From assembly GCA_937894085.1 (NCBI GenBank), contig CALCSG010000217.1:2199-66198 (forward strand): a DNA stretch of 64,000 nt. Reading direction: 5' to 3'. Shown here piece by piece: positions 2,097-13,122 of this stretch (positions are counted from its first letter, which is position 1; each line of letters opens with the position of its first letter). Source of the stretch: an uncultured Gammaproteobacteria bacterium (GTDB taxonomy: Bacteria; Pseudomonadota; Gammaproteobacteria; GCA-001735895). The position numbers and the translations under genes were made by a program. The notes under the pieces are model-generated. The model did no database searches and had not been told where the DNA came from. It worked only from the letters and a program-made list of their open reading frames with translations.

Positions 2097-2342
2097 CTAA
2101 TGATCACACTTATCCATTTTCTCTTTTGATTTGGGTAACACCGATATGAGGAAGGTCGAGATCAGGATTATCGGTGACAGTAAGAGCAGGATAAAACCGA
2201 AAAACATGATGATATGCTGCAAATTCCAGATGTGGGGCACCACATGCATGGCGACCAGTATCAGCATAATACCGGCTGTAAAGAAGATAAGCGAAGCTGC
2301 CACTCCTTCGCGCATTGTTTGACAACCTAAGGTTAATAACAT
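2097..2342 (-). CDS. Small two-TM membrane protein, last gene of the cytochrome operon
   Basis: 81-aa ORF, strongly hydrophobic (two predicted helices), 30 bp downstream of the NapC/NirT-family gene on the same strand. Confidence 0.4.
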   Translation of the reverse strand: MLLTLGCQTMREGVAASLIFFTAGIMLILVAMHVVPHIWNLQHIIMFFGFILLLLSPIILISTFLISVLPKSKEKMDKCDH

Positions 2343-2372
2343 GCTTTTATCCTCAATCTATTTTTCTGATTT

Positions 2373-3020
2373 TTATTCATTTTCAGCCATTAGCTTTTTC
2401 GCTGTGCCTTTTTCCAGCCCGAACTCGAGCTCGATCATTTCATTCCAGGCAGCTCTTTTGAATGTTTTTTCATGCGGAACCTTGCGGTGTACCAGGTTGT
2501 AATGACATTCGATACAGCTTTTATCTTTAGCGTCTTCCAGGTGAATTTTACGGGTATCCGGACGATCACCGTAAATCGCCTCTTTAACATGACAGCGTTT
2601 ACAGGTTGCCGAGTCTCGATCTTTAAACCATTTCCTGGCTTCAAATGCTGCTTCTGGTAAATGCAGTGCATTCATCACGGGGTCATCATAGTTAGGGCCA
2701 AAAACAGCCCCTTTCACCTGCTTGATAACATCTTTACCTCCAATGAAATGATCCCAGGTTGCCGATATCACTCCTTCAGATACGTGACAGTCTCCACAAC
2801 TCGCCTGTACACCCGAACTGGGTTTGTAATGCTTCGACTCACGGTATGGCTCGGCAACAATTCCCATGGAATGGCAGGTCGTACAAAATTCTTCACTGCT
2901 GGTGTAATGATCAAACTCAATCAGGAAAAGAATGAACACAATACCTGCTATACCTCCAACTAACAGGGCAAACAGAACATGGCGGGTTATAAATGCGGGT
3001 AAAGGTAATTTAATCTTCAT
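2373..3020 (-). CDS. NapC/NirT/NrfH-family membrane-anchored tetraheme cytochrome c (quinol dehydrogenase)
   Basis: 215 aa with an N-terminal TM helix and four CxxCH motifs (CTTCH, CGDCH, CKRCH, CIECH) at NapC/NirT-like spacing. Overlaps the upstream octaheme gene by 11 bp. Confidence 0.85.
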   Translation of the reverse strand: MKIKLPLPAFITRHVLFALLVGGIAGIVFILFLIEFDHYTSSEEFCTTCHSMGIVAEPYRESKHYKPSSGVQASCGDCHVSEGVISATWDHFIGGKDVIKQVKGAVFGPNYDDPVMNALHLPEAAFEARKWFKDRDSATCKRCHVKEAIYGDRPDTRKIHLEDAKDKSCIECHYNLVHRKVPHEKTFKRAAWNEMIELEFGLEKGTAKKLMAENE

Positions 3021-4464
3021 TGCCTTTTCCCTGCCCGAAACCCAGTATAGGATTCGCTTTTTGCGGATGATTTAACCAGTCATGATGCTCTGAACCATTG
3101 ATATGCTTTTTGATCAGCGCATCACCTTTCTCTTTTCCAGCAACTTCACGTATCTGGGCTAGAAATTTTCCGTAAAAATCACTGCCCAGATCACTCATGC
3201 CTTTCCAGGTTGAACTGGGACTGCCCATCGCGGCACCATGCCTGGCCAGCGTTCCATGTGTATGCCACAGATTCCAGTAGGTGACTTCTAATGGTTCATC
3301 GAAAGGAAGAGGGGTCAACAGGCCTGCAGAATATAGATCCTGCATGATTGCCTGTGCAGGCTTGCCATATTTTTCATTATAAAGCTCGACCACATTATCA
3401 AATTGTGACATGGCATTTTCGCTAAACCCCTTACTGTGGCATTCCAGACAGGTTTTTGTCATCGCACCTCTGCGACGTTTAGGCGATGCAACAGCCTTAA
3501 CCTTGCCCATACTACCATCCATTTTTGAAATGCTTTCGCCACGTCCCGGTAAAGGCTCGGAGGTTGATAGTTCGCGTTTATCACCATCTTCAAAAATTAT
3601 TAAATATTGCTGTTCTGACACAGCTGAATTCAGGTTCCACGAGTCACGCATTCCAACATCGTGAGTGGATTTCATTTTTCCTGCAGCGCCCATATGACAG
3701 GTAACACAGGTAGGTGCAGCCGAATAATCCTGTCCTGCTACCCATTGATCACTGTCCATATTCATGTCTTTTTTATGTGCTTCATACATCATGCCATGCT
3801 TTGAAGTTTCATAAACTTCCTTATCGGGTGAATCGGGGCCGGAGTGACAATAAATACAGGCCTGTGGTTCACGCGCCTGTGCTTTGGAAAATGTATGCCG
3901 GCCATGACAGGCAGAACAGGAACCGACAGATCCATCAGGGTTAATTCGTCCAATACCTGAATTAGGCCAGGTGGATGGATCGAGTGAACCGTCACCACGT
4001 ACTTTAACTTCAGATCCATGGCACTTTGCACAACCCGCATCATTGATCGAAGGACTGCCAAAATGTTGAGAAAGTGCAGGCATACGGTTTTTAATAATTG
4101 ATAGAGCTTTGGTATGCACAGAACCTTTCTGTTGTTTTAATTCAGTTTCATGACAACGCCCGCAATCTTTGGGTGACACGATGGTAGCAATAATACTGCC
4201 TTCATGTTCGATAGCATCGATGTCTTCTTCATAAGCCTGATGACAATCCAGACAGTTAACATTAGCTGCCGCATGTGCACTGTTTTTCCATTGATGGGTT
4301 AATCCTGCCGAGGACCTGGCATGACAATCTACACAGGCTTTTCCTTCTTCACTACCCCAGGTACTGGAGTCCAGTGTTACTTTATCAGCCACAGCAGACG
4401 CCGAGAATAACAGGATAAATATGACTGTAAAAGCTGATAAAGGGGTCTGTGTAAAAGGCTTCAC
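3010..4464 (-). CDS. Octaheme c-type cytochrome, hydroxylamine-oxidoreductase (HAO) family-like, periplasmic
   Basis: 484 aa with a signal peptide and eight CxxCH motifs (CVDCH, CLDCH, CGRCH, CAKCH, CSACH, CIYCH, CVTCH, CLECH). No CxxCK. Coupled to a NapC/NirT (CycB-like) gene, as seen for HAO-family octahemes. Confidence 0.65.
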   Translation of the reverse strand: MKPFTQTPLSAFTVIFILLFSASAVADKVTLDSSTWGSEEGKACVDCHARSSAGLTHQWKNSAHAAANVNCLDCHQAYEEDIDAIEHEGSIIATIVSPKDCGRCHETELKQQKGSVHTKALSIIKNRMPALSQHFGSPSINDAGCAKCHGSEVKVRGDGSLDPSTWPNSGIGRINPDGSVGSCSACHGRHTFSKAQAREPQACIYCHSGPDSPDKEVYETSKHGMMYEAHKKDMNMDSDQWVAGQDYSAAPTCVTCHMGAAGKMKSTHDVGMRDSWNLNSAVSEQQYLIIFEDGDKRELSTSEPLPGRGESISKMDGSMGKVKAVASPKRRRGAMTKTCLECHSKGFSENAMSQFDNVVELYNEKYGKPAQAIMQDLYSAGLLTPLPFDEPLEVTYWNLWHTHGTLARHGAAMGSPSSTWKGMSDLGSDFYGKFLAQIREVAGKEKGDALIKKHINGSEHHDWLNHPQKANPILGFGQGKGNED

Positions 4465-4489
4465 TGCATTACTCCACTATTATTATTTT

Positions 4490-4525
4490 TAGTTATATTA
4501 AAACAGCCCCATTTAAGGGGCTAAA
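4490..4525 (-). terminator. Hairpin (agcccc-atttaa-ggggct), terminator/attenuator-like between cytochrome b and the HAO-like gene
   Basis: 6-bp GC stem at 4505-4510/4517-4522, followed on the minus strand by GTTTTAAT. Sits in the 92-bp gap between two minus-strand genes. Confidence 0.3.
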
Positions 4526-4556
4526 TTCAATTGCTGGTATTAATAAATATTTCTAA

Positions 4557-5156
4557 TTATTCTTTCTCAAAACCGAAAATCATTGCTTTGAGGTATCCAA
4601 GAAATTCATCACTGGTGGTCAAAGCCAGATACAGATGAACGATAAGAAATGCTAACAACATAAAAGCCATTGCGGTATGAATCAGCGCAATCACTAACAG
4701 GCTAACATCCCCAAGACCAATCATTGGCCAGTAAGGATAAAAAAAGTAGAGCAGACCACTTAGTACCGCAAATGGAAGCATAAAGATATGCAATGACAGG
4801 TATGCCATGCGCTGCATGGGATTTAGCTTTGAGCGTCTGGTTTTATGGTGAGGATGTTCACTACCACCAATAAATATATCCACCCCGTAATACTTCACCA
4901 TCGCTAACAATTTATTCATATTGGCAGGAATATATTGCTTCCACTCGCCGGTAACCATGTGCCAGAAAATACCCAGAAACCAGATGGCTATCAAAGACCA
5001 GGCAGCTACGATGTGAATATCAACCGCTTTTTCAAAGCCAAAAAAATCAAAAGTATCATGAATCTCAAAACCAGTTACCAGTAAGGTAATTACCAGTAAC
5101 CCCTGAGACCAGTGCCAGATCCGCTCGAAGCGGGTATACATCATGACTTCTTTCAT
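4557..5156 (-). CDS. Dihaem cytochrome b membrane subunit (Ni/Fe-hydrogenase-type cytochrome b / PhsC/CybB family)
   Basis: 199 aa with four TM helices. N-terminal RFERIWHWSQ motif and conserved His positions typical of PF01292-type cytochrome b. Start overlaps the upstream octaheme gene stop (ATGA). Confidence 0.8.
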   Translation of the reverse strand: MKEVMMYTRFERIWHWSQGLLVITLLVTGFEIHDTFDFFGFEKAVDIHIVAAWSLIAIWFLGIFWHMVTGEWKQYIPANMNKLLAMVKYYGVDIFIGGSEHPHHKTRRSKLNPMQRMAYLSLHIFMLPFAVLSGLLYFFYPYWPMIGLGDVSLLVIALIHTAMAFMLLAFLIVHLYLALTTSDEFLGYLKAMIFGFEKE

Positions 5157-6781
5157 TGTTTCTTCCTCCGTCTGGAAAATAACACTCGAACCAGACCATG
5201 CAGGCCGACCCCACCAAAAGTTCCTGCTACTGCCAGCCAGCCGATAGTGTCGAGGATGCTATTGTTATCGCGTCCCGGCATATAAAAATCTGTCAACTTA
5301 TCCAGTCTGCCGCCTTTGCTGTGGCAATCTGCACAACTTAAGGTCTGATCCTTGGGGGCAACCATATGCGCCAATGGCATGTGCATGGTGGTTTCAATGA
5401 AACCATATTCACCACTATAGTCTGCTCCCGCTTCTTTCATGGCCTCACTGATAGCACTGTCCCAGTCGTAAGATTTCCAGTAGGCAGCCTTATCCTTACC
5501 AAACAGATGGATCAGTGCCAGAGTGTTATTACCCTTGTCATAAGGTTGTTTACCGCGCATTACCTTAAAAGGCCAGATACGTGCATTCGGGTCGTCATAG
5601 GATCCGGAAAAATTATTTAACTCGACCACTTCTTGCGGATTGATTTTTTCATCCAGTTGCTTGAAATGAACATTACCGGATAACCAGGCATATTCCGGCT
5701 CAACATTTTCAGCCCATTTAAAATTTCCTTTTTTAGTGACATAGGTGACATAACCATGCTCATCTTTCATGGTGATTTCTTTTCCATCCGCATCTTTTTT
5801 ACCTGCAGTTGTCCAGTCCCACCATAATTTTGAAGGTACACCGCCTCGTGCATAAGCAGGTATGTGACAGGTCGTACAGGCTACTTTATCGGTATGATCA
5901 TTGATTTTATTATTCAAAGTCGATTTGTGTGGCGTCATCCCATGACATGACTCACAGGTAGCTCGACTATTATCATCACGTCCGGGCACATCGATACCGT
6001 GTGTATCTTTGGCAACCGGGTTATAACGACTACCTTTAACATCATGTCCATCAGTAGTATGACATTCACTACATCCAAAATTCAGGCCATCCACACCCAT
6101 GTGAACATCCAGCTCTTTTTTCGGATTGGTCATCGATGAGTCCAGATCACCGTGTTTGACTCCATCTCCGCCGCCGCCATAAAAGTGGCAGACACCGCAA
6201 TTCTCTCGACGTGTTTTACCTACCTTTTGCGCGACATCGCTTAAATCAGCCACTTTCCAGACTTTCTTACTGCCTTTCGGAAAAATCTTCTCCTTGTAGT
6301 TTGGATGACCGGCATCGGTTGGAAATTTCTTGTAGGTATCGGTAGTGTCGTGACAAACCAGACAGTCAACTTTATCTTCTGCAGTAAAATCGAAGCTGTC
6401 ATCTTTCCAGCCATAACCAATATGACAACTTGTGCAGCGTGGTTGATTACTGGTAATGGATAAACAGAAATTATTTATTACGCTTTTTTTACCGACTTCT
6501 TCACCAGTATCGGGATTGGTAAACGTCCAGTTCCAGTGCTTGGTTTTATGTAACTGTTTACTGGCCTCGGTATGACAACTGAGACAGGCTTTAGTGACTT
6601 CAGGACCTGTTTTAAAAGGTTTTTGAAGTTCTTCGAATTTACTGTGATCAGCGGTTGAAGTAGATTTTTTGGTAGTTGCACTTTCCTGCATAGCCAGACT
6701 TACACTGGCAAAACTGCTCAGATAAAGACACAGCGATATCAGAAAAGCAGATGTTTTATAACTGCTATTACGGGAAATCAT
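5153..6781 (-). CDS. Octaheme c-type cytochrome, OTR (octaheme tetrathionate reductase)-like, with C-terminal TM anchor
   Basis: 542 aa with a signal peptide and eight CxxCH motifs (CLSCH, CTSCH, CLVCH, CGVCH, CSECH, CESCH, CTTCH, CADCH). Hydrophobic C-terminal helix followed by RRRKKQ. Translationally coupled to the cytochrome b gene. Confidence 0.6.
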   Translation of the reverse strand: MISRNSSYKTSAFLISLCLYLSSFASVSLAMQESATTKKSTSTADHSKFEELQKPFKTGPEVTKACLSCHTEASKQLHKTKHWNWTFTNPDTGEEVGKKSVINNFCLSITSNQPRCTSCHIGYGWKDDSFDFTAEDKVDCLVCHDTTDTYKKFPTDAGHPNYKEKIFPKGSKKVWKVADLSDVAQKVGKTRRENCGVCHFYGGGGDGVKHGDLDSSMTNPKKELDVHMGVDGLNFGCSECHTTDGHDVKGSRYNPVAKDTHGIDVPGRDDNSRATCESCHGMTPHKSTLNNKINDHTDKVACTTCHIPAYARGGVPSKLWWDWTTAGKKDADGKEITMKDEHGYVTYVTKKGNFKWAENVEPEYAWLSGNVHFKQLDEKINPQEVVELNNFSGSYDDPNARIWPFKVMRGKQPYDKGNNTLALIHLFGKDKAAYWKSYDWDSAISEAMKEAGADYSGEYGFIETTMHMPLAHMVAPKDQTLSCADCHSKGGRLDKLTDFYMPGRDNNSILDTIGWLAVAGTFGGVGLHGLVRVLFSRRRKKQ

Positions 6782-6866
6782 GATACCCCCTCCCTAAAGT
6801 TTATTGCTTATAGTATCTCTGACCAAAGGCTGTAGACATTCATCTACAGCCTTTACCAGAACCCTC

Positions 6867-8156
6867 TTACAAGGAGTTTTCAGCCGAAGCAATCATCTTC
6901 GGAGCAGTTACATCTGTGGGGAGTTTAGTAAACTTTTTAACCAGACCAGGCCATAGCAGGTTGTAATATAACTCTGCACGAACCAGCTCTACACCTTTAG
7001 CAGGTATCGAGTATTCCAGGTCACGTTTTTCAAATGCTTTCAATCGAGTATCTGCACCCTGACCTTTTGCAGTTGGTGGACCTGTTGGCTTTCCATCACC
7101 ATCAACTAGAGTCAAAAACATAAATGCTTGTTTATCTTCTTTAGCGGGGTGGCCTTTAGCATTTTGCCAAACTACATTTCCGCTCTTATCATAAGCTGAA
7201 ATCTTTACATAGATATTTCTAAAGGGAGCGCCTGTAGGCATGGTATGTGGCTGTTTATTCTTAATCGTAACAGTCGACATTATGTTACCGCCATTCTTCT
7301 TACTGTCCATACTGAATAGTACTGAACGCTGTAACATACCCAAATCATGTCCACCGCCCATACTGTGATCGGCTACAGCATCATTAGTCGGCATGTGGCA
7401 TGACAGGCAATCAACCTGTGCATTACTGGCAATGTATTCATCACCCGTTGCACATAGAGGAACACCGTGAGAATTATTGCGCTTATCATGACAACCCATG
7501 CAAGCATCTGAACTTCTCAACTGCGTTGGGTTACTTTCCATAGGCATCGCCTGAATGGTCTTACCATCAATGGTTACCGCCTCGCCCAGATGTGGGTTCG
7601 GTTTTTGATCTGCTTCTCCACCACCAAAACCAAATGCATCACCGGCTGATGCCAGTTTCTGTAATTTAGTATTAGAATGGCGACCGGATCCCTGCAGCAC
7701 GTCAGAAACTTCATATGCCATCATACCGAGCTGCATTTTTCCATTTGCGGCGGTAGTACCTTTAAATTTTTTCAATGTATGACAGGCTACGCAGTTGACG
7801 CCTTCAGCATAGGCAGGTGTCGCGTCAAGTTTGGTCTTTTTATCTTTGGCGGCATTCGGGGCATGGCACTGTATACAAACTGGAAATTTGCCTGCTTTTG
7901 TTTTTACACCCTCCTGACCAGGATCACCAACAACGTTTCTATAAAATGTTCCATGAATGGGATCGTTGAACGCGGTACTGTTCGCATGCATCGAACCTTT
8001 CCATTGTTTATAGATTTCTTTATGGCAGGTTTTACAGGTTTCAGATGAGACCTGGTGAATTGATTTGTCAGCAAACACATTTGTAGCTGAGACTAAACTT
8101 AAACCACAAAATACAATTGCTGAAAATAACATCGAAGTTTTTGTCTTGTTGCGCAT
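6867..8156 (-). CDS. Pentaheme c-type cytochrome with a ~150-aa haem-free C-terminal domain
   Basis: 429 aa with a signal peptide and five CxxCH motifs (CKTCH, CIQCH, CVACH, CMGCH, CLSCH). First gene of the minus-strand cytochrome cluster, with a 494-bp AT-rich upstream region. Confidence 0.7.
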   Translation of the reverse strand: MRNKTKTSMLFSAIVFCGLSLVSATNVFADKSIHQVSSETCKTCHKEIYKQWKGSMHANSTAFNDPIHGTFYRNVVGDPGQEGVKTKAGKFPVCIQCHAPNAAKDKKTKLDATPAYAEGVNCVACHTLKKFKGTTAANGKMQLGMMAYEVSDVLQGSGRHSNTKLQKLASAGDAFGFGGGEADQKPNPHLGEAVTIDGKTIQAMPMESNPTQLRSSDACMGCHDKRNNSHGVPLCATGDEYIASNAQVDCLSCHMPTNDAVADHSMGGGHDLGMLQRSVLFSMDSKKNGGNIMSTVTIKNKQPHTMPTGAPFRNIYVKISAYDKSGNVVWQNAKGHPAKEDKQAFMFLTLVDGDGKPTGPPTAKGQGADTRLKAFEKRDLEYSIPAKGVELVRAELYYNLLWPGLVKKFTKLPTDVTAPKMIASAENSL

Positions 8157-8650
8157 TCCTGTCCTTCCTTATATGTTTTTATAAATTATAAAAAGAGCAA
8201 CATTCAACATAAAAATTTTAGCTTTATGGCTGCTTGAAAGATTAGTTTTGACTGGAGACTTTCACTAATTCAATTCTAAACTTCGCACTTCATCGACTTT
8301 CGTTTGCTAAAGACGAAAAATACGCGACTTATACTGCTCTCAAAGTATTTAAATATTTGGGGGTTTTTATTAAAAATCGAAAACAAAACCTAATTTTCTA
8401 ACTTTCATATTCATCCCTTCTTTATATTTTTTTTAAGGTAGCTAAAATATTAGCTTAAACACGACAACATAAGTTAATAACTCTTACAATTACACCGAAA
8501 ACAGGGGCTATACTGCAAAATAAGTGGCATTTAATTAATGTAAATTAATTTTTTAGCGGATACATACAGGCATCTTTTCTGCTTATCAACTAGCGGGAAG
8601 ATCTACTTAAAGAATAAAATATTCCTTATATAAAGACCGTTTAATCGATC

Positions 8651-11542
8651 TTATATTTGAGCTAAAAGTAGTTTTTTCATTTCAGCAGAGGGCACTGCCG
8701 GACTAAACAAATATCCCTGCATCTGATCACAGCCCTCAGCAAGCAATAGCTCAAATTGCTGAGGAGTTTCCACACCTTCGGCGATCAGATGCAGGTTCAT
8801 GCTTTTACCTAAGGCTATAATAGCCCGGGTAATTGCCAGATCCTCCTGGTCGCCGGGTAGATCACGCACAAATTCACGATCAATTTTCAATTTATCTACC
8901 GGAAACCGCTTTAGATAACTGAGCGATGAATAACCTGTCCCAAAGTCATCAATGGCTAAATCGACTCCCAAAGATTTTAATGCATTGAGTGTATGAATCG
9001 CCTGCTCGGCATTTTCCATTAACATGCTTTCGGTTATTTCCAGCTCAAGATAACCAGCATCAAGCCCGGATATCTGCAATATCTGCTGCACTTGCGAAAC
9101 AATATCAGCTTGAGTGAGCTGACGTGCTGATAAATTGACTGACATTTTTAGCGCAGGTAACCCGGCCCGCTGCCACTCAACGGCCTGACGACAGGCCTCG
9201 AACAGTACCCACTTTCCTATCGGTTCTATCAACCCGCTTTCTTCTGCGAAGGGAATAAACTGGTTTGGAGATACCAGACCTGTTTGCGGATGCTCCCAGC
9301 GTATCAGAGCTTCCATGCCAACTATCTGGTTAGAACTTAATTCGATCTGAGGTTGATAATAAAGACGAAATTCTTCACGATTTAACGCATGCCGCAAATC
9401 AACCTGAAGCTTTTGACGCTCTTTGGCGATGGCTGTCAGAGTATCAGAAAAGTACTGAAATCCATTGCGCCCCAGGTCTTTAGCCCGATACATAGCAGCA
9501 TCCGCATTTTTAATCAGGGTGTCGACATTTTCGCCCTGCTCAGGATAAATCGAGATACCGATACTACTGGAAACAAAAAGCTCATGACCGTCAATAGCAA
9601 ACGGCTTTCTGAATCTTTCCAGTATCTTCTCTGCGACCAGAGCGGCATCCTGTGGTTGATCAATCTGCTCAACCAGAATTAAAAACTCATCGCCACCCTG
9701 ACGTGCAACGGTATCACCCTGACGCACAATTTCCTTTAAAATCGTTGACGCACTCTGTAATAATTTATCGCCTACCGCATGCCCAAGAGAGTCATTGACC
9801 TCCTTAAAATTATCCAGATCTATGAACAATAAAGCCATATTCACTTTGCTTCGACTGGCTCGATGAATGGCATGTTCCAGGCGTAACTGAAATAACATGC
9901 GATTCGGTAAATTCGTCAGCGGATCGTGATGTGATAAATATTCAAGTCGCTGCTGGGTTTCTTTAATTGCACTTATATCACCGAAAACACCTACATAATT
10001 TGTCAGCTTACCGGTTTCATCTTTGAGTGTATTTATAGTCAGCCACTCCGGGTAAAGCTCACCTGATTTGCGCCTATTCCAGATTTCTCCCTGCCAATAA
10101 CCTTTTGCCTTAATAGATGACCACATTTCTATAAAGAAAGGGTTTTTATGTTGCCCGGAATGCAGGAATGAGGGATTCCTGCCGATGACTTCCTGTTCGC
10201 TATAACCAGTAATTTCTGTAAATGCCGGGTTGACACTGACAATATTGACATCAGCATCGGCAATAATCACACCTTCCACGGTTGACTCTACAATCTTGGC
10301 CGCCAGTAACTGCTGCTTTTCAGCCTGCTTTCGGCGCGAAATATTCCTGATGACACCTGAAATAGCCAAAGGTATACCATCATCATCCGCAATGGCTCGA
10401 GAGATAGCCTCTACGTCAACAAAATCACTATTGATACTATTTAGTTTAAACTCTGCAACGCAGTGCTCCTCCCTGGCGATAGCCTGGTCGGAAAATAGCT
10501 TCACACAACGATCATGATCTACAGGGTCAACAAATTCACTCCAGTGACGGGCCAGGGAAGACTCAACTGAATTTCCCGTAAGCTTTTCCCATGCGGGACT
10601 GAGAAACTCCCAGCAGCCATTAATATCGATACGAAAAAGCACATCTTCCATATTATTAATGACGGTTCTATAGGCTTCTCTACTTTCTTTTAATTCAGTT
10701 TCCCGTTTACCGATATTTTCCGCCATAGAATTAAATGCGAGACTTACCTGGTCCATATCCTGATCGGCTTCTCTATTCAGACGTACAGAGTAATCACCAT
10801 TTGAAAGCCTGACGGTGGCCGCATTCATACTTTTCATTCGCTTCAGAAGAATTCGATTCAACATCCAGGATGCGATAATTAAACTGACAAGAAAAATTAA
10901 TGTCTTAAGGATCAGCTCTTTTTTCAGCTCGGACAATAACCTGTCCTGGAAAAGTTGAGCGGGCAATTTTATACTTAAAATTCCCCGTAAATCATCAAGT
11001 TTATAACCATAGGCGGTATCATAATTTTCACTGATACTGGCCGGCGCATTTTTTTGTTCTCCATGGCAGACAAGACATTGGGTAACTATGCGCAGAGGTG
11101 CTGAAAAGTGATAAGCCTGTTCCCCGGTGGGTTTAATAAAAGGTACAAACCTGTCTGTCGCCTGTGGGTTCTGTCTGAAATAATTCATTGCCTCCAGTTC
11201 CACACTATCGGCCTGATTCTGAGGGTTTCTGGGTCTGTCCGAAACACTGTTAAACCATATACCATCATCAGTTAATAAATTATATTCTTTTGCGATTCTA
11301 CTAATTGAGTGAGCCGGCAAAAAACGGATAGTTTTATCATTAACGGAAATATTTTCTTCGATGAATACCCGTTGATAAACTCGCCGCATGGAAACCAGAA
11401 CACCCTGTAATATTTTTGATTCCCGGTAGATGCCGGCTTTAACGGATTCGACACTGAGTAGATAGCCACGATATTCCACCAGCCCAAATGCCAGTAACAT
11501 AATACCGCTTATTGCAAAAAGTGTTTTTGTCTGGAGATTCAT
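8651..11542 (-). CDS. Signalling protein: periplasmic haem-c sensor domain (CxxCH, DUF3365/Tll0287-like) - TM - HAMP - 2xPAS - GGDEF - EAL
   Basis: 963 aa. N-terminal TM, then a periplasmic domain with CLVCHGEQ, then a second TM plus HAMP. PAS domains, GGDEF (RQGGDEFLIL) and EAL (EALIRW...DDFGTGYSS) motifs are intact. Confidence 0.85.
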   Translation of the reverse strand: MNLQTKTLFAISGIMLLAFGLVEYRGYLLSVESVKAGIYRESKILQGVLVSMRRVYQRVFIEENISVNDKTIRFLPAHSISRIAKEYNLLTDDGIWFNSVSDRPRNPQNQADSVELEAMNYFRQNPQATDRFVPFIKPTGEQAYHFSAPLRIVTQCLVCHGEQKNAPASISENYDTAYGYKLDDLRGILSIKLPAQLFQDRLLSELKKELILKTLIFLVSLIIASWMLNRILLKRMKSMNAATVRLSNGDYSVRLNREADQDMDQVSLAFNSMAENIGKRETELKESREAYRTVINNMEDVLFRIDINGCWEFLSPAWEKLTGNSVESSLARHWSEFVDPVDHDRCVKLFSDQAIAREEHCVAEFKLNSINSDFVDVEAISRAIADDDGIPLAISGVIRNISRRKQAEKQQLLAAKIVESTVEGVIIADADVNIVSVNPAFTEITGYSEQEVIGRNPSFLHSGQHKNPFFIEMWSSIKAKGYWQGEIWNRRKSGELYPEWLTINTLKDETGKLTNYVGVFGDISAIKETQQRLEYLSHHDPLTNLPNRMLFQLRLEHAIHRASRSKVNMALLFIDLDNFKEVNDSLGHAVGDKLLQSASTILKEIVRQGDTVARQGGDEFLILVEQIDQPQDAALVAEKILERFRKPFAIDGHELFVSSSIGISIYPEQGENVDTLIKNADAAMYRAKDLGRNGFQYFSDTLTAIAKERQKLQVDLRHALNREEFRLYYQPQIELSSNQIVGMEALIRWEHPQTGLVSPNQFIPFAEESGLIEPIGKWVLFEACRQAVEWQRAGLPALKMSVNLSARQLTQADIVSQVQQILQISGLDAGYLELEITESMLMENAEQAIHTLNALKSLGVDLAIDDFGTGYSSLSYLKRFPVDKLKIDREFVRDLPGDQEDLAITRAIIALGKSMNLHLIAEGVETPQQFELLLAEGCDQMQGYLFSPAVPSAEMKKLLLAQI

Positions 11543-11685: not shown

Positions 11686-13122
11686 TTATTTAATAATTGC
11701 TGCAAACTCTTTAACCAGTGCATCAGCAGTAATACCATTAGCAAATTTAGTCACAAAGCTGCCATCCGGGGCCATTAAATAAAGGCTGGCTGTATGGTCC
11801 ATGGTATAAAGGCTCGAATCTGATTTATCTCTCGGGCCTTTTTCATACTTAACCCTGAACTGATCGGCAACCCGTTTTATCATCTGTTCAGAACCGGTAA
11901 GCCCAATCAGGCGTTGATCAAAGTAACTGACATAATTTCGTAACAGTTTTACCGTATCCCGTTCAGGATCAACAGAAATGAAATAAGGTTGAACCTGCTC
12001 TGCCAGTACACCCATCTGTTGCAGTGCCTGAGTCAATACCGTTAAACTGGTTGGACACACATCAGGGCAGGAAGTATAACCAAAAAACACCAGTGAATAT
12101 TTTCCCTTCATATCCTGTTCAGTCACAGTTTGTCCAAGATGATTGGTCAGAAAGAAACGCCCTCCCAACCCATCAATGACGGGACTATCGTCACCATAGG
12201 CCGCCATCCTTGCTTTTGCGGCAGCATCCAGATTAGCATTCAGACATCGCTTGATGACATCTGTATTGTATTCCATCAATTTAAGATAAAGTTCCGGCCC
12301 CGCTTGCAGATCAAGCCCCAGAGTATCCAGTTCACCAATATTTATACTCTGCCCTGCGGTTAACAACTGAAGATTTTTCGCTGGCATACTCTTGTCTATA
12401 AACAAACATGCAGCTTCATGACTGGTTATTCTTGTCCTGACTTTAAGCAAGTCTGTAACCCTTTCTACATCCCACGGAGAACCAGAAACTCGATCCAGTG
12501 TTTGCAGCGCATAGGCCTGCTCAAAATAATTCAGGTTGTCATAATACGAAACGCCGAGACCGGCTTTTAATCCTCGATATCCATATTCGTATTCTTTATC
12601 AATACGACGTAACGGATCCAGCATGGCCATTCGATTTCTAATATAAATATGGGAGCGGGCAGGGTCCAGCTGGACCAGCGCTTCGGTCAACTCATCTAAC
12701 ATGATGATTGCATTACGGTCATCCATCCAGAAAAAGGGATCTCGAAAATCGGGATTCTGTCGTGACGGTAAAATTTTCAGATCGGGGCTGGACAGTAACT
12801 CGATAACTTTGACCGTTTCTGGTAACTGGCTCACTGTTGACTGCAAGGTTTTTTCCAGTTCCTGGCCTACCCAGATAAATAAGCTGGATTCAGCAAGCTG
12901 CTGTTGCTGAGTTTCGCTTAACTCAAAGTTATAGGGTGTGTTTTTTCCATCAATTAACAGCAGGGGCTCGCCTATATCCTGCATCAGGCCGGAGACTATA
13001 GAATGCACCGGTTTAATACTGGTCACCACCCTGAATTTATTTGCTGACCAGGCAGGCAGACTGGTAACCATCAACCCACAACTAACGAGCAGGATAAATA
13101 GCGGAAGAATTTTTTTTATCAT
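11686..13122 (-). CDS. Fusion protein: ZnuA/TroA-like periplasmic metal-binding-fold domain + SCO1/SenC copper chaperone (thioredoxin-like, CxxxCP)
   Basis: 478 aa. The N-terminal half aligns to the ZnuA architecture (VVTSIKPVHSIV...LFIWVGQELE). The C-terminal half carries the SCO1/SenC signature GKYSLVFFGYTSCPDVCP. Signal peptide present. Confidence 0.7.
   Translation of the reverse strand: MIKKILPLFILLVSCGLMVTSLPAWSANKFRVVTSIKPVHSIVSGLMQDIGEPLLLIDGKNTPYNFELSETQQQQLAESSLFIWVGQELEKTLQSTVSQLPETVKVIELLSSPDLKILPSRQNPDFRDPFFWMDDRNAIIMLDELTEALVQLDPARSHIYIRNRMAMLDPLRRIDKEYEYGYRGLKAGLGVSYYDNLNYFEQAYALQTLDRVSGSPWDVERVTDLLKVRTRITSHEAACLFIDKSMPAKNLQLLTAGQSINIGELDTLGLDLQAGPELYLKLMEYNTDVIKRCLNANLDAAAKARMAAYGDDSPVIDGLGGRFFLTNHLGQTVTEQDMKGKYSLVFFGYTSCPDVCPTSLTVLTQALQQMGVLAEQVQPYFISVDPERDTVKLLRNYVSYFDQRLIGLTGSEQMIKRVADQFRVKYEKGPRDKSDSSLYTMDHTASLYLMAPDGSFVTKFANGITADALVKEFAAIIK

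What the first reader, a model, noticed from the sequence alone, without database searches (positions are those of the whole stretch)
4557..6781. OTR-like octaheme with its own C-terminal membrane anchor, translationally coupled to a hydrogenase-type cytochrome b
The 542-aa octaheme ends in a hydrophobic helix plus RRRKKQ. This is unusual, because OTR homologues are generally soluble periplasmic proteins. Its stop overlaps the start of a PhsC/CybB-like dihaem cytochrome b (ATGA), implying a stoichiometric quinol:octaheme oxidoreductase complex. A terminator-like hairpin follows at 4505-4522.
Basis: partly seen in the sequence, partly recalled or inferred. Interest (0 to 1): 0.6.

Follow-up and report, generated by a model that had tools for sequence, protein, structure and literature searches.

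The report
Membrane-anchored octaheme reductase with cytochrome b
An eight-haem periplasmic enzyme of the tetrathionate-reductase (OTR) family carries its own membrane-spanning tail and is encoded back-to-back with a two-haem membrane cytochrome b; the pair is real, is conserved in many mostly sulfur-cycling bacteria, is built like the membrane module of hydrogenase and formate dehydrogenase, and I found no experimental study of it.

Summary
Window 5153-6781(-) encodes a 542-aa OTR-family octahaem cytochrome: TIGR04315 643 bits, eight CxxCH, the Lys haem ligand conserved, and an AF2 model matching 1SP3. It ends in a confidently predicted helix (residues 508-541) followed by RRRKKQ. Its stop overlaps (ATGA) the start of a 199-aa PF01292 cytochrome b, which has all four FdnI/HyaC-type haem histidines. 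A hairpin with a T-run follows the cytochrome b gene.

The tail is not rare. It is one of two alternative C-terminal endings in the OTR family, and every relative I examined at 46-90% identity has it. His528 and Arg532 in the helix are as invariant as the haem cysteines. In 79 of 79 related genomes where the downstream DNA is present, the cytochrome b gene follows directly. More than 20 natural single-chain fusions (OTR-tail-cytochrome b) exist. Tail-less OTRs lack the cytochrome b.

The best reading is a Hya/Fdn-style membrane complex in which a tail-anchored multihaem c subunit replaces the FeS subunit and links the quinone pool to a periplasmic active site. Direction of electron flow and substrate are undetermined. 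The gene adjacency is already noted in genome papers; the anchor itself I did not find described. It is a new variant of a known kind and of moderate interest.

The parts
5153..6781 (-). Gene for the 542-aa OTR-family octahaem cytochrome c, with eight CxxCH at residues 66, 116, 140, 195, 237, 276, 302 and 483.
   Evidence: ORF list. TIGR04315 643 bits against a cut-off of 375, covering residues 44-500. PF11783. phmmer to 1SP3, E = 1e-120. AF2 model pLDDT 85.3. Foldseek to 1SP3, E = 7e-46, TM 0.85.
6692..6781 (-). Predicted Sec signal peptide, about residues 1-30 (MISRNSSYKTSAFLISLCLYLSSFASVSLA|MQ).
   Evidence: Hydrophobic segment with KD 1.89 at residues 10-32. AF2 helix 8-33 followed by a low-confidence linker. 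The cleavage site is inferred by eye; no signal-peptide predictor was run.
6488..6490 (-). Codon of Lys98, the counterpart of the distal Lys that ligates the active-site haem in S. oneidensis OTR.
   Evidence: In the 1SP3 alignment, query G97-K98-K99 matches chain G55-K56-K57. K98 is invariant in 16 and in 80 homologues. Lys ligation outside a CxxCK motif in OTR is stated in PMC12285233. The residue number 56 is from my memory of Mowat et al. 2004.
5267..5287 (-). Conserved juxtamembrane motif FYMPGRD (residues 499-505), which marks the anchored (type A) ending of the family.
   Evidence: Y500 100%, P502 99%, G503 97%, R504 95% and D505 90% in 79 genome-derived sequences. The motif is absent from the soluble (type B) ending...GRLDW.ALGY.GDP.
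5159..5260 (-). C-terminal anchor helix (residues 508-541) with invariant His528 (5198-5200) and Arg532 (5186-5188), then RRRKKQ on the inferred cytoplasmic side.
   Evidence: AF2 helix 508-541, pLDDT 83-96. H528 and R532 invariant in 80 sequences at 46-90% identity. Conserved helical face: moment 0.38 against 0.159±0.08 in shuffles, p = 0.006. KD hydropathy only 1.47.
5153..5169 (-). Translational-coupling junction: a GGAGGA Shine-Dalgarno-like site (5169-5164) and the ATGA stop/start overlap (5156-5153).
   Evidence: Read directly from the sequence. In relatives, 46/78 junctions overlap by 1-11 nt and 31/78 are 3-18 nt apart, with GGAG-like sites inside the 3' end of the octahaem gene.
4557..5156 (-). 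Gene for the 199-aa four-helix dihaem cytochrome b (PF01292). Predicted haem ligands are H15 and H174 (cytoplasmic-side haem) and H48 and H160 (periplasmic-side haem). Further conserved residues: H33, H66, and K110-x-N112-x2-Q115.
   Evidence: PF01292 76.4 bits against a cut-off of 30.1. Alignment with E. coli FdnI and HyaC places the four His on FdnI H18, H57, H155 and H169. Conservation in 79 sequences. The cytochrome b part of a fused homologue matches HyaC (6G94_A, 4GD3_A; probability 1.00) and FdnI (1KQF_C; 0.99).
4494..4523 (-). Terminator-like hairpin (7-bp stem, 5 G-C pairs, 6-nt loop) followed by GTTTTAATATA, lying between the cytochrome b gene and the next gene.
   Evidence: Terminator scan. 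RNA fold -15.8 kcal/mol, z = -3.06. The T-run is short (4 T), so it may act as a partial terminator or stabiliser. Function was not tested.
6867..8156 (-). Associated gene: a 429-aa cytochrome c554-like pentahaem protein, 85 nt upstream of the octahaem gene.
   Evidence: PF13435 E = 2.5e-17. A homologue is present in 33 of 80 related loci, next to either the OTR or the HAO-like gene.
2097..4464 (-). Associated module downstream: a 484-aa HAO/IhOCC-like octahaem (3010-4464), a NapC/NirT-type tetrahaem quinol dehydrogenase (2373-3020, overlapping the previous gene by 11 nt) and an 81-aa membrane protein (2097-2342).
   Evidence: Best solved relative is 4QO5_A, E = 2e-42. The module co-occurs with the OTR-cytochrome b pair in about 30 of 80 related loci, in three different gene orders.

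Best explanation
The two genes encode a two-subunit membrane-bound oxidoreductase.

The octahaem is exported by Sec, loaded with eight c-haems in the periplasm, and stays tethered by its C-terminal helix (N-terminus outside, RRRKKQ inside).

That helix packs through one conserved face (L510, D511, G514, V518, T521, V525, H528, G529, R532) against a four-helix dihaem cytochrome b of the FdnI/HyaC type. The architecture is that of hydrogenase-1 (HyaA tail plus HyaC) and formate dehydrogenase-N (FdnH tail plus FdnI), with a multihaem c subunit in place of the FeS subunit.

Electrons pass in this order: a quinone/quinol site near the cytoplasmic-side haem b, haem b (H15/H174), haem b (H48/H160), the OTR haem chain, and the Lys98-ligated active-site haem. 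Electron transfer is therefore transmembrane.

My committed reading of direction is quinol to a periplasmic acceptor (nitrite, hydroxylamine or tetrathionate), i.e. a quinol-dependent reductase. I put this at about 0.5, with the reverse direction at about 0.3.

Shown: family membership of both proteins, the helix prediction, the gene coupling, the co-occurrence, the fusions and the residue conservation.

Inferred: membrane insertion, helix-helix contact, position of the quinone site, direction and substrate.
For: 1. Octahaem identity. TIGR04315 643 bits against a cut-off of 375; 1SP3 E = 1e-120; fold TM 0.85; Lys98 invariant.

2. Cytochrome b identity. PF01292; the four canonical His align to FdnI H18, H57, H155 and H169; K-x-N-x2-Q before TM3 aligns with FdnI K-Y-N-A-G-Q; the fold of a homologous cytochrome b domain matches HyaC and FdnI.

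3. Anchor. AF2 helix 508-541 at pLDDT 83-96; positive residues after it, acidic residues before it; H528 and R532 invariant in 80 sequences; one conserved helical face, p = 0.006.

4. Coupling.
- ATGA overlap with an internal Shine-Dalgarno-like site.
- Cytochrome b directly downstream in 79/79 informative loci from Gamma- and Alphaproteobacteria, 77/78 within -11 to +18 nt.
- Distant anchored OTRs are again followed by PF01292 genes.
- Five tail-less OTRs with informative flanks have none.
- In L098 a tail-less OTR is followed by a different multihaem protein that carries the same anchor motif, and then by the cytochrome b.

5. Rosetta-stone fusions. More than 20 clusters encode OTR-anchor-cytochrome b as one chain with 15-25-residue linkers. 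One of them has 61 member sequences, from Ca. Thiodiazotropha. AF2 of that fusion gives pLDDT 85 and pTM 0.80, with the anchor helix followed by four TM helices.

6. Resemblance to the hydrogenase anchor. A profile of OTR tails scores the E. coli HyaA tail at 10.4 bits. None of 2000 shuffles reaches this (maximum 7.0). The match is ungapped over 35 residues, with D, G, V..H and RRR in register. FdnH scores 2.6 bits, reached by 0.85% of shuffles.

7. Direction. [quoted passage not shown]
Against: - Plain hydropathy of this protein's tail is marginal (KD 1.47). By my hand sum of the Hessa scale it would not insert on its own. No dedicated TM predictor could be run.
- Covariation between tail and cytochrome b was uninterpretable.
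- The tail profile finds nothing in a PDB-wide search at E <= 10, so similarity to HyaA rests on a targeted test only.
- A cytoplasmic-side quinol site would make a reductase consume proton-motive force. That is thermodynamically awkward for tetrathionate with ubiquinol.
- Genomic contexts disagree about substrate. HAO-like and NapC genes are here; rhodanese, SoxYZ and a sulfur-transporter gene are at other members.
- The in vitro activities were measured with methyl viologen and say nothing about the physiological direction.
- Deletion of the soluble OTR in Shewanella has no tetrathionate phenotype (PMC12949373).
Confidence: 0.75

Rival explanations
1. Same complex, opposite direction. It is a periplasmic donor:quinone oxidoreductase working as a proton-motive redox-loop half, like Fdn-N and Hyd-1. 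It would oxidise a reduced sulfur or nitrogen compound (for example sulfide, sulfite, a SoxY-bound sulfane, or hydroxylamine) and reduce quinone at the cytoplasmic side.
For: - The membrane module is that of the two classical quinone-reducing redox loops.
- The residues before TM3 that align with the FdnI loop are conserved.
- Carriers are overwhelmingly sulfur oxidisers: Thiodiazotropha, Sedimenticola, tubeworm symbionts, Beggiatoaceae, Chromatiaceae and Prosthecochloris.
- A fused member sits between rhodanese and soxYZ. Other members lie near SoxZ, rhodaneses and a Sulf_transp gene.
Against: - Thiosulfate/tetrathionate is too oxidising a couple to reduce quinone, let alone electrogenically (established redox potentials).
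- Every activity measured for OTR enzymes is reductive (PMC6449678; PMC12949373).
- Sulfate reducers and other anaerobes also carry the anchored form.
- No sox, dsr or other sulfur genes lie in this 64-kb window.
Confidence: 0.28
2. The tail is only a passive tether that keeps the enzyme at the membrane. The cytochrome b works with it loosely or serves the neighbouring HAO-like enzyme, and there is no specific helix-cytochrome b complex.
For: - Single-helix tethers are common on periplasmic redox proteins.
- No contact was measured here, and the covariation analysis failed.
Against: - A passive tether would not keep an invariant His and Arg and one conserved face across 46-90% identity.
- Anchor and cytochrome b co-occur strictly and are repeatedly fused.
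- The motif moves with the cytochrome b onto a different multihaem protein.
- The HAO-like enzyme has its own NapC-type partner.
Confidence: 0.05
3. The C-terminus is a cleavable sorting signal (GlyGly-CTERM/rhombosortase, PEP-CTERM or similar: Gly-rich motif, hydrophobic helix, basic cluster), not a permanent anchor.
For: The tail superficially has the tripartite look of such signals. There is a weak sub-threshold hit to PVV-CTERM: 14-15 bits against a cut-off of 27, E = 0.02-0.03.
Against: - No hit to the GlyGly-CTERM or PEP-CTERM models at E <= 10.
- In the fusions the helix is internal and continues into the cytochrome b.
- It occurs in many phyla, always with the cytochrome b.
Confidence: 0.02
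4. The module is primarily a transmembrane redox sensor that reports periplasmic redox state or substrate to the cytoplasm, not a respiratory enzyme.
For: - In some lineages the cytochrome b is extended by PAS domains (L092) or a response-regulator receiver domain (P0289, P0297).
- A haem-c sensor GGDEF/EAL protein lies upstream in the window.
Against: - The window's cytochrome b has no output domain: it is 199 aa and ends right after TM4.
- The catalytic Lys ligand and the full OTR fold are kept.
- Most members lack signalling domains.
Confidence: 0.05

Closest known systems
Octahaem tetrathionate reductase OTR of Shewanella oneidensis MR-1 (PDB 1SP3; NCBIfam TIGR04315)
   Same: - Same family and fold: E = 1e-120, 45% identity over the model, TM 0.85.
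- Eight CxxCH.
- The same distal Lys haem ligand position.
   Different: - The Shewanella enzyme is soluble. It ends ...RLDW... shortly after haem 8, and the 1SP3 alignment stops at query residue 495.
- The literature proposes that it draws electrons from CymA (PMC12949373).
- The window protein adds FYMPGRD, an anchor helix with invariant His and Arg, and a basic tail. It is coupled to its own cytochrome b.
E. coli hydrogenase-1 HyaA/HyaB/HyaC (PDB 4GD3, 6G94) and formate dehydrogenase-N FdnG/FdnH/FdnI (PDB 1KQF)
   Same: - The same membrane module: an electron-transfer subunit held by one C-terminal TM helix that contains a His near the cytoplasmic end and is followed by basic residues, plus a four-helix dihaem PF01292 cytochrome b with the same four His ligands.
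- The HyaA tail scores 10.4 bits against the OTR tail profile.
   Different: - The anchored subunit there is an FeS protein exported folded by Tat. Here it is a Sec/Ccm-matured multihaem cytochrome c that is itself the catalytic subunit.
- The cytochrome b falls below the HyaC and FdnI equivalog cut-offs and has two extra conserved His (H33, H66).
- Hya and Fdn reduce quinone. The direction here is unknown.
Thiosulfate reductase PhsABC (PhsC cytochrome b; NCBIfam NF011582)
   Same: - PhsC is the best-scoring named cytochrome b family (89.6 bits).
- It offers a precedent for quinol oxidation at such a cytochrome b driving a periplasmic reductase (my recollection of Stoffels et al. 2012).
   Different: - The score is far below the cut-off of 204, so this is not a PhsC equivalog.
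- The partner there is a molybdoenzyme plus an FeS subunit, not a multihaem cytochrome c.
NrfH-NrfA and CymA/NapC-type quinol dehydrogenase modules for multihaem reductases
   Same: The same logic: a membrane quinol dehydrogenase dedicated to a periplasmic multihaem enzyme with a Lys-ligated active-site haem.
   Different: - Those use an N-terminally anchored tetrahaem cytochrome c with a periplasmic-side quinol site, so there is no transmembrane electron transfer.
- Such a module (NapC/NirT type) sits next door in the window, paired with the HAO-like octahaem.
Ohc-type clusters: OTR-family octahaem with a Tat tail-anchored FeS protein and a HybB/NrfD-like subunit (bioRxiv 10.1101/2023.11.02.564894; OhcBAC of Desulfovibrio, PMC4641369)
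   Same: Another way of wiring an OTR-family or other octahaem cytochrome to the membrane and the quinone pool.
   Different: - There the anchor is on a separate FeS protein, and the membrane subunit is cofactor-less NrfD-like, or an unrelated cytochrome b.
- Here the octahaem carries the anchor and binds a PF01292 cytochrome b directly.
BOGUAY_2386 of orange Guaymas Beggiatoaceae and TDIS_1882/1883 of Thermosulfurimonas dismutans
   Same: - OTR genes with an adjacent cytochrome b gene, already noted in print (PMC6449678, PMC4911364).
- BOGUAY_2386 reduced tetrathionate and nitrite in vitro.
- Beggiatoaceae relatives in my set carry the anchor (P0086, L045).
   Different: [quoted passage not shown]
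- In the passages my term searches of these papers returned, the C-terminal anchor, its invariant His and Arg, and the fusions are not mentioned.
- I did not verify that these two specific proteins carry the anchor.

Membership tests
OTR family octahaem cytochrome c (NCBIfam TIGR04315 / Pfam PF11783) | Score above the curated family cut-off over the full model | tested here: met
   643.2 bits against a cut-off of 375, model positions 1-440 of 440 on residues 44-500. PF11783 233.6 bits.
OTR family octahaem cytochrome c (NCBIfam TIGR04315 / Pfam PF11783) | Eight CxxCH haem-binding motifs | tested here: met
   Eight motifs, at residues 66, 116, 140, 195, 237, 276, 302 and 483. All are invariant in 80 homologues.
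OTR family octahaem cytochrome c (NCBIfam TIGR04315 / Pfam PF11783) | Active-site haem ligated by a Lys remote from any CxxCK motif | tested here: met
   K98 aligns with K56 of chain 1SP3_A and is invariant. Actual ligation cannot be shown by sequence.
OTR family octahaem cytochrome c (NCBIfam TIGR04315 / Pfam PF11783) | OTR three-dimensional fold | tested here: met
   AF2 model pLDDT 85.3. Foldseek to 1SP3: E = 7.3e-46, TM 0.85, rmsd 3.3 Å.
OTR family octahaem cytochrome c (NCBIfam TIGR04315 / Pfam PF11783) | Soluble periplasmic protein, as described for the characterised member | tested here: not met
   A C-terminal anchor helix lies outside the family model. This is a property of the characterised enzyme, not of the curated family definition.
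OTR family octahaem cytochrome c (NCBIfam TIGR04315 / Pfam PF11783) | Tetrathionate, nitrite or hydroxylamine reductase activity | not testable with these tools
   Only literature on relatives is available (PMC6449678; PMC12949373).
Prokaryotic dihaem cytochrome b, Ni_hydr_CYTB superfamily (Pfam PF01292; FdnI/HyaC type) | Score above the Pfam gathering threshold | tested here: met
   76.4 bits against 30.1, residues 7-194 on model positions 2-178 of 179.
Prokaryotic dihaem cytochrome b, Ni_hydr_CYTB superfamily (Pfam PF01292; FdnI/HyaC type) | Four TM helices with four His haem ligands: one on TM1, one on TM2, and two on TM4 spaced 14 residues apart | tested here: met
   H15, H48, H160 and H174 align with FdnI H18, H57, H155 and H169 and are 100% conserved. 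Hydrophobic segments are listed. A homologous domain is modelled as four helices and matches HyaC and FdnI.
Thiosulfate reductase cytochrome b PhsC (NF011582, equivalog) | Score above the curated equivalog cut-off | tested here: not met
   89.6 bits against a cut-off of 204.
Ni/Fe-hydrogenase b-type cytochrome (TIGR02125) and formate dehydrogenase gamma subunit (TIGR01583), equivalogs | Score above the curated equivalog cut-offs | tested here: not met
   45.5 bits against 121.5, and 39.3 bits against 115.85.
Hya/Fdn-type membrane module (tail-anchored electron-transfer subunit plus PF01292 cytochrome b) | The partner subunit ends in a single TM helix with basic residues on the cytoplasmic side | tested here: met
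   Helix 508-541 followed by RRRKKQ. The HyaA and FdnH tails were read from E. coli K-12 for comparison.
Hya/Fdn-type membrane module (tail-anchored electron-transfer subunit plus PF01292 cytochrome b) | Sequence homology of the anchor to the HyaA or FdnH anchors | tested here: inconclusive
   In a targeted test HyaA scores 10.4 bits, above all 2000 shuffles, and FdnH scores 2.6 bits. The PDB-wide profile search finds nothing at E <= 10.
Hya/Fdn-type membrane module (tail-anchored electron-transfer subunit plus PF01292 cytochrome b) | Physical contact of the anchor helix with the cytochrome b | not testable with these tools
   No multimer prediction was available and no model coordinates were accessible. 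Indirect support comes from the fusions, the fusion model with pTM 0.80 and the conserved face.
Hya/Fdn-type membrane module (tail-anchored electron-transfer subunit plus PF01292 cytochrome b) | The anchored subunit is a Tat-exported FeS protein | tested here: not met
   The anchored subunit is a multihaem cytochrome c with a Sec-type signal peptide and no twin-arginine motif in MISRNSSYKTSAF....
C-terminal protein-sorting signals (GlyGly-CTERM, PEP-CTERM, PVV-CTERM) | Match to a curated sorting-signal model above its cut-off | tested here: not met
   Only PVV-CTERM appears, at 14-15 bits against a cut-off of 27. No other CTERM model hits at E <= 10.

The most novel reading that the evidence does not exclude
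The anchor helix is a functional part of the membrane redox site rather than a tether. Its invariant His528 and Arg532, together with the cytochrome-b-specific His66 on the same (cytoplasmic) side, would either build the quinone pocket or bind an additional haem. The OTR-cytochrome b complex would then be an electrogenic, proton-motive redox loop. In sulfur-oxidising bacteria it would run 'backwards' as a reduced-sulfur (or hydroxylamine):quinone oxidoreductase. That would be a so far unrecognised, energy-conserving entry point of sulfur or nitrogen electrons into the quinone pool, and the long-sought physiological role of the OTR family.
Probability: 0.15. Interest if true: 0.75.

Novelty: new variant of a known kind. 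Interest (0 to 1): 0.45.

Why it matters
- The physiological role and electron donor of OTR are still called unresolved in a 2026 paper, which describes the enzyme as soluble (PMC12949373).
- This locus belongs to a large, taxonomically broad branch of the family that carries its own dedicated, translationally coupled or even fused cytochrome b. The branch includes chemosynthetic symbionts, Beggiatoaceae, purple and green sulfur bacteria, and sulfate reducers.
- That gives a concrete, testable electron route to the quinone pool.
- It extends the Hya/Fdn membrane-module design from FeS subunits to a multihaem c-type catalytic subunit.
- It singles out two invariant membrane residues (His528, Arg532) for mutagenesis.

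Tried and rejected
1. Covariation (MI with APC) between tail and cytochrome b on 79 non-redundant pairs. The top pairs were dominated by one variable tail position and were inconsistent with membrane depth, so I discarded the analysis.
2. PDB-wide search with a profile of the tail: no hit at E <= 10. Pfam on the tail alone: nothing.
3. The sorting-signal hypothesis: only a sub-threshold PVV-CTERM hit, so I rejected it.
4. A complex model. No multimer option exists and concatenated sequences are not accepted, so I used a natural fusion (P0274) as a proxy. Coordinates are not exposed, so no distances or contacts could be measured.
5. Literature.
   - The search for 'OhcA' was swamped by cardiology papers.
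   - A search for the Ohc complex found nothing.
   - PMC3119410 is not held.
   - I could not find support in the library for my recollection that His305 in the C-terminal helix of Wolinella HydA is needed for quinone reactivity. It remains a recollection.
6. Rfam on the whole window: no hits.
7. The rest of the window gave no sulfur or nitrogen respiration genes to help with the substrate.
The statement that tail-less OTRs lack a cytochrome b therefore rests on five informative metagenomic or MAG loci.
9. A regex for the tail motif was too strict twice. The classification was completed by eye from the printed tails.

Full report
**1. What is at the coordinates**

All genes from 2097 to 11542 lie on the minus strand:
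- a haem-c/PAS/GGDEF/EAL sensor (8651-11542);
- a c554-like pentahaem protein (6867-8156);
- the 542-aa octahaem (5153-6781);
- a 199-aa cytochrome b (4557-5156);
- a 484-aa HAO/IhOCC-like octahaem (3010-4464);
- a NapC/NirT-type tetrahaem protein (2373-3020);
- an 81-aa membrane protein (2097-2342).

The octahaem has eight CxxCH motifs and ends ...FYMPGRDNNSILDTIGWLAVAGTFGGVGLHGLVRVLFSRRRKKQ.

Its TGA stop overlaps the ATG of the cytochrome b as ATGA. A GGAGGA site lies 7 nt upstream of that ATG, inside the codons of the basic tail.

A 7-bp hairpin with five G-C pairs, followed by GTTTTAATATA, lies 34 nt downstream of the cytochrome b stop. It folds at -15.8 kcal/mol, z = -3.06.

**2. Identity of the two proteins**

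*The octahaem.*
- It scores 643 bits on NCBIfam TIGR04315 (OTR family; cut-off 375). The match covers residues 44-500, so the curated model ends before the tail.
- phmmer finds only the Shewanella oneidensis OTR structure 1SP3 (E = 1e-120). That alignment stops at residue 495.
- Gly97-Lys98-Lys99 align with Gly55-Lys56-Lys57 of the 1SP3 chain. Lys98 is invariant in 80 homologues. OTR is known to ligate its active-site haem with a Lys outside any CxxCK motif (PMC12285233). The number Lys56 is from my memory of Mowat et al. 2004.
- An AlphaFold2 model (pLDDT 85.3, pTM 0.80) superposes on 1SP3 with TM 0.85.

*The cytochrome b.*
- It is a PF01292 protein (76 bits against a cut-off of 30).
- Its best named relatives are PhsC, HyaC-type and FdnI-type cytochromes b, all far below their equivalog cut-offs.
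- Aligned with E. coli FdnI and HyaC (sequences read from K-12), His15, His48, His160 and His174 fall on FdnI His18, His57, His155 and His169. That is the classical ligand set for a periplasmic-side and a cytoplasmic-side haem.
- K110-x-N112-x2-Q115 before TM3 aligns with FdnI K-Y-N-A-G-Q. I recall this loop as part of the cytoplasmic-side menaquinone/HQNO site of Fdn-N.
- These residues, plus two further His (His33, His66), are at least 95% conserved in 79 orthologues.

**3. Is the tail a membrane helix?**

No dedicated TM predictor was available.

Kyte-Doolittle hydropathy of the window's own tail is marginal: 1.47 over 19 residues. The helix is Gly-rich and contains His and Arg. Homologous tails range from 1.3 to 2.7.

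Four observations argue that it is nevertheless a real anchor:
- AlphaFold2 predicts a single uninterrupted helix over residues 508-541, with pLDDT 83-96.
- Acidic residues (D505, D511) precede the helix and six Arg/Lys follow it, which fits an out-to-in topology.
- The tails of E. coli HyaA (...TVGLTALGVVAAAVGVHAVASAVDQRRRHNQ...) and FdnH (...AAAGFIATFAGLIFHYIGIGPNKE...) are similarly Gly/Ala-rich and His-containing. I take these to be the membrane anchors of those two enzymes, from my knowledge of the 4GD3 and 1KQF complexes.
- In natural fusion proteins the same helix is followed, after 15-25 residues, by TM1 of the cytochrome b. This is topologically possible only if the helix crosses the membrane.

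**4. How common is it?**

- Of the 120 closest 90%-identity clusters (58-90% identity), all but two carry the same tail. Those two are P0039, whose tail diverges midway as after a frameshift, and P0086, which is cut off within the helix.
- Of 112 further clusters retrieved with a fusion protein as query, 111 carry it. They include proteins named from Prosthecochloris, Desulfonema, Desulfacinum, Acidobacteria, Zixibacteria and Anaerolineae.
- A scan of one genome per species found at least 581 genomes with OTR relatives. The best 80 (55-86% identity) all align through residue ~540, except two cut short by contig ends. They come from Ca. Thiodiazotropha, Sedimenticola, tubeworm and clam symbionts, Beggiatoaceae, Chromatiaceae, Rhodospirillales, Caenispirillum and Roseospira.

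Across 50%-identity representatives of the whole family (1712 hits; 387 at E <= 1e-30), two alternative endings follow haem 8:
- Type A: GRL..L.GFYMPGRD...LD.IGWL.VLGTLGGV.LHG..R...RRR. It is present in 16 of 61 complete representatives, down to 40% identity.
- Type B: GRLDW.ALGY.GDP, followed soon by the stop. This is the 1SP3 type.

The literature I could search still calls OTR soluble (PMC12949373, 2026). Term searches within the papers retrieved returned no passage mentioning a C-terminal anchor.

**5. Is the anchor tied to the cytochrome b?**

*Gene adjacency.*
- In 79 of the 80 related loci a cytochrome b orthologue (44-82% identity) lies directly downstream on the same strand. The 80th locus ends inside the octahaem gene.
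- Stop-to-start distances are -11 to +18 nt in 77 of 78 cases. Forty-six overlap by 1-11 nt, and GGAG-like sites are embedded in the 3' end of the octahaem gene.
- Two distant type A proteins are again followed by PF01292 genes. In one of them the cytochrome b is extended by PAS domains. A third is followed by an unannotated 168-aa ORF.
- Five type B proteins with informative flanks have no PF01292 neighbour.
- The most telling case is L098. A type B OTR is followed by a different 658-aa multihaem protein that ends ...YVLGHDRAGWVDALGALAVLGALLAAGAHGGLRWLRRRGG, and only then by the cytochrome b. The anchor motif travels with the cytochrome b, not with the OTR domain.

*Fusions.*
- More than 20 clusters encode octahaem, anchor and cytochrome b in one polypeptide. 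Examples are P0126, P0150, P0157, P0272-P0283, P0295 and P0298.
- P0274 has 61 member sequences and lies on a 1.3-Mb Ca. Thiodiazotropha contig.
- In P0160 and P0168 extra haem domains precede the anchor. P0289 and P0297 carry an added receiver domain.
- Linker lengths and sequences differ between clusters, so these are not one assembly artefact.

*Fusion model.*
- AlphaFold2 of P0274 gives pLDDT 85 and pTM 0.80. The anchor helix (487-514) is followed by four TM helices.
- Foldseek matches the two halves to 1SP3 and to HyaC and FdnI.

**6. The anchor is under specific constraint**

- His528 and Arg532 are invariant in 80 sequences spanning 46-90% identity, on a par with the haem-binding Cys and His. 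G514, G524 and V525 are at least 90% conserved.
- Conservation has helical periodicity: the moment at 100° is 0.38 against 0.159±0.08 in shuffles (p = 0.006). It defines one face: L510, D511, G514, V518, T521, V525, H528, G529, R532. This is what a helix-helix or helix-cofactor interface running through the membrane should look like.
- A profile of 33 tails scores the HyaA tail at 10.4 bits, above all 2000 composition-matched shuffles (maximum 7.0). The match is a 35-residue ungapped alignment with D, G, V..H and RRR in register. FdnH scores 2.6 bits, in the top 0.85%.
- A PDB-wide search with the same profile finds nothing at E <= 10. I therefore treat the similarity to HyaA as a resemblance, due to common origin or to the same partner constraint, and not as demonstrated homology.
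- Covariation between tail and cytochrome b was uninformative.

**7. Mechanism**

The best-supported picture is a Hya/Fdn-style membrane module in which the tail-anchored subunit is a Sec/Ccm-matured multihaem cytochrome c that is also the catalytic subunit.

The electron path would run from a quinone site near the cytoplasmic-side haem b, to that haem b (His15/His174), to the periplasmic-side haem b (His48/His160), through the OTR haem chain, to the Lys98-ligated haem. All steps after the protein identifications are inferred.

Two b haems spanning the membrane imply transmembrane, electrogenic electron transfer. There are two possible directions:
- *Quinol-driven reductase.* Such an enzyme would spend proton-motive force, as I recall was proposed for PhsABC. 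That is affordable for nitrite or hydroxylamine, and for tetrathionate only with a low-potential quinol.
- *Donor:quinone oxidoreductase.* This would conserve energy as a redox loop, as Fdn-N and Hyd-1 do.

I commit to the reductase direction at about 0.5. The reasons are that every measured OTR activity is reductive, including that of a Beggiatoaceae enzyme with a cytochrome b gene downstream (PMC6449678), and that anaerobes also carry the module.

I give the oxidative direction about 0.3. The reasons are the sulfur-oxidiser bias of carriers and the rhodanese, SoxYZ and sulfur-transporter neighbours of some members.

In this window the conserved companions are different: the c554-like pentahaem, the HAO/IhOCC-like octahaem with its own NapC-type partner, and the 81-aa protein. 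These occur in about 30-35 of 80 related loci, in three gene orders. That context points to nitrogen-oxide or hydroxylamine chemistry, but it does not settle the substrate.

**8. Rivals**

- *Passive tether.* Contradicted by the invariant His and Arg, the conserved face, the strict co-occurrence and the fusions.
- *Cleavable sorting signal.* Contradicted by the absence of any CTERM model hit above cut-off and by the internal position of the helix in the fusions.
- *Sensor role.* Suggested by the PAS- and receiver-extended variants, but the window's cytochrome b has no output domain.

**9. Comparison and novelty**

- Both proteins are members of known families, and public annotation already names them.
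- The adjacency of OTR and cytochrome b genes has been noted in at least two genome papers (PMC4911364; PMC6449678).
- Other ways of wiring OTR-family cytochromes to the membrane are also on record: a Tat tail-anchored FeS protein plus an NrfD-like subunit (bioRxiv 10.1101/2023.11.02.564894), and the Ohc complex.
- I did not find the following described: that the octahaem itself carries a conserved, His/Arg-bearing anchor resembling the hydrogenase small-subunit anchor; that this ending defines a large branch of the family; that the anchor-plus-cytochrome b unit is portable; and that it is repeatedly fused.
- I rate this a new variant of a known kind.
- Interest is moderate. The design is what a bioenergeticist would half expect. 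It does, however, bear directly on the unresolved physiological role of OTR, and it is immediately testable.

Noticed in passing
L098:1753-4271 (and fused proteins P0160, P0168): The anchor motif (…D..G…G….H…R…RRR) followed by the PF01292 cytochrome b also occurs at the end of a different 658-aa multihaem protein, encoded just after a tail-less OTR. In P0160 and P0168 it follows extra haem domains. The anchor-plus-cytochrome b unit therefore behaves as a portable module.
   Followed up: partly
P0289, P0297 (OTR-anchor-cytochrome b-receiver domain); L092:4698-6158 (cytochrome b-PAS): In some lineages the cytochrome b partner of an anchored OTR is extended on the cytoplasmic side by a response-regulator receiver domain or by PAS domains. 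This hints at a transmembrane redox-sensing variant of the module.
   Followed up: partly
P0159, P0174, P0183: Proteins of about 1090 aa combine an N-terminal NrfD-type polytopic membrane domain, a c7-like domain and a C-terminal tail-less OTR domain in one chain. This is a third way of wiring the family to the membrane.
   Followed up: partly
window 2097-8156 (-): Six genes travel together in about 30-35 of 80 related genomes, in at least three different gene orders: the c554-like pentahaem, OTR, cytochrome b, an HAO-type octahaem (best solved relative 4QO5_A, deposited as a hypothetical multihaem protein, E = 2e-42), a NapC/NirT tetrahaem protein and an 81-aa membrane protein. They amount to two quinone-linked octahaem modules plus a c554-like carrier, reminiscent of HAO-c554-cM552. 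The function is unknown.
   Followed up: partly
window 8651-11542 (-): A 963-aa signalling protein with a periplasmic Tll0287-like domain containing a CxxCH, then HAMP, two PAS, GGDEF and EAL domains. It lies immediately upstream of the cytochrome cluster. Homologues of its C-terminal part occur near the cluster in several related loci.
   Followed up: partly
window ~6822-6851 (-): A near-perfect 12-13-bp inverted repeat (AAGGCTGTAGA-TGAATG-TCTACAGCCTT) without a T-run sits in the 85-nt gap between the pentahaem gene stop and the octahaem start. It could be a processing, stabilising or attenuating hairpin.
   Followed up: no
L081:3789-8020: In a Ca. Thiodiazotropha genome the fused OTR-cytochrome b gene (P0274) lies between a rhodanese gene and soxY-soxZ. 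Another member lies near SoxZ (L094). A third is preceded by two rhodaneses and a Sulf_transp (YeeE-like) gene. Some paralogues therefore sit in a sulfur context.
   Followed up: partly
window cytochrome b residues 33 and 66 (4557-5156, -): Two His beyond the four canonical haem ligands are at least 95% conserved in OTR-associated cytochromes b. His66 is absent at the aligned position of E. coli HyaC and FdnI (His33 falls in a gapped, unaligned region, so its counterpart could not be assessed). His66 lies on the cytoplasmic side, like the anchor's His528. Its role is unknown.
   Followed up: no
window 14000-64000: The rest of the window encodes ordinary heterotroph functions: GABA catabolism (succinate-semialdehyde dehydrogenase, GABA transaminase), a fused TRAP transporter, Lon protease and a sigma-54 two-component pair. 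It has no sox, dsr or nap genes. There are no Rfam hits in the 64 kb. An identical cytochrome b occurs on 16 marine or aquatic metagenome contigs.
   Followed up: partly
window 11686-13122 (-): A 478-aa ORF looks like a fusion of a periplasmic metal-binding (ZnuA/TroA-like) domain with a C-terminal SCO1/SenC-like thioredoxin-fold domain (CPDVCP motif). I judged this by eye from the translation only.
   Followed up: no
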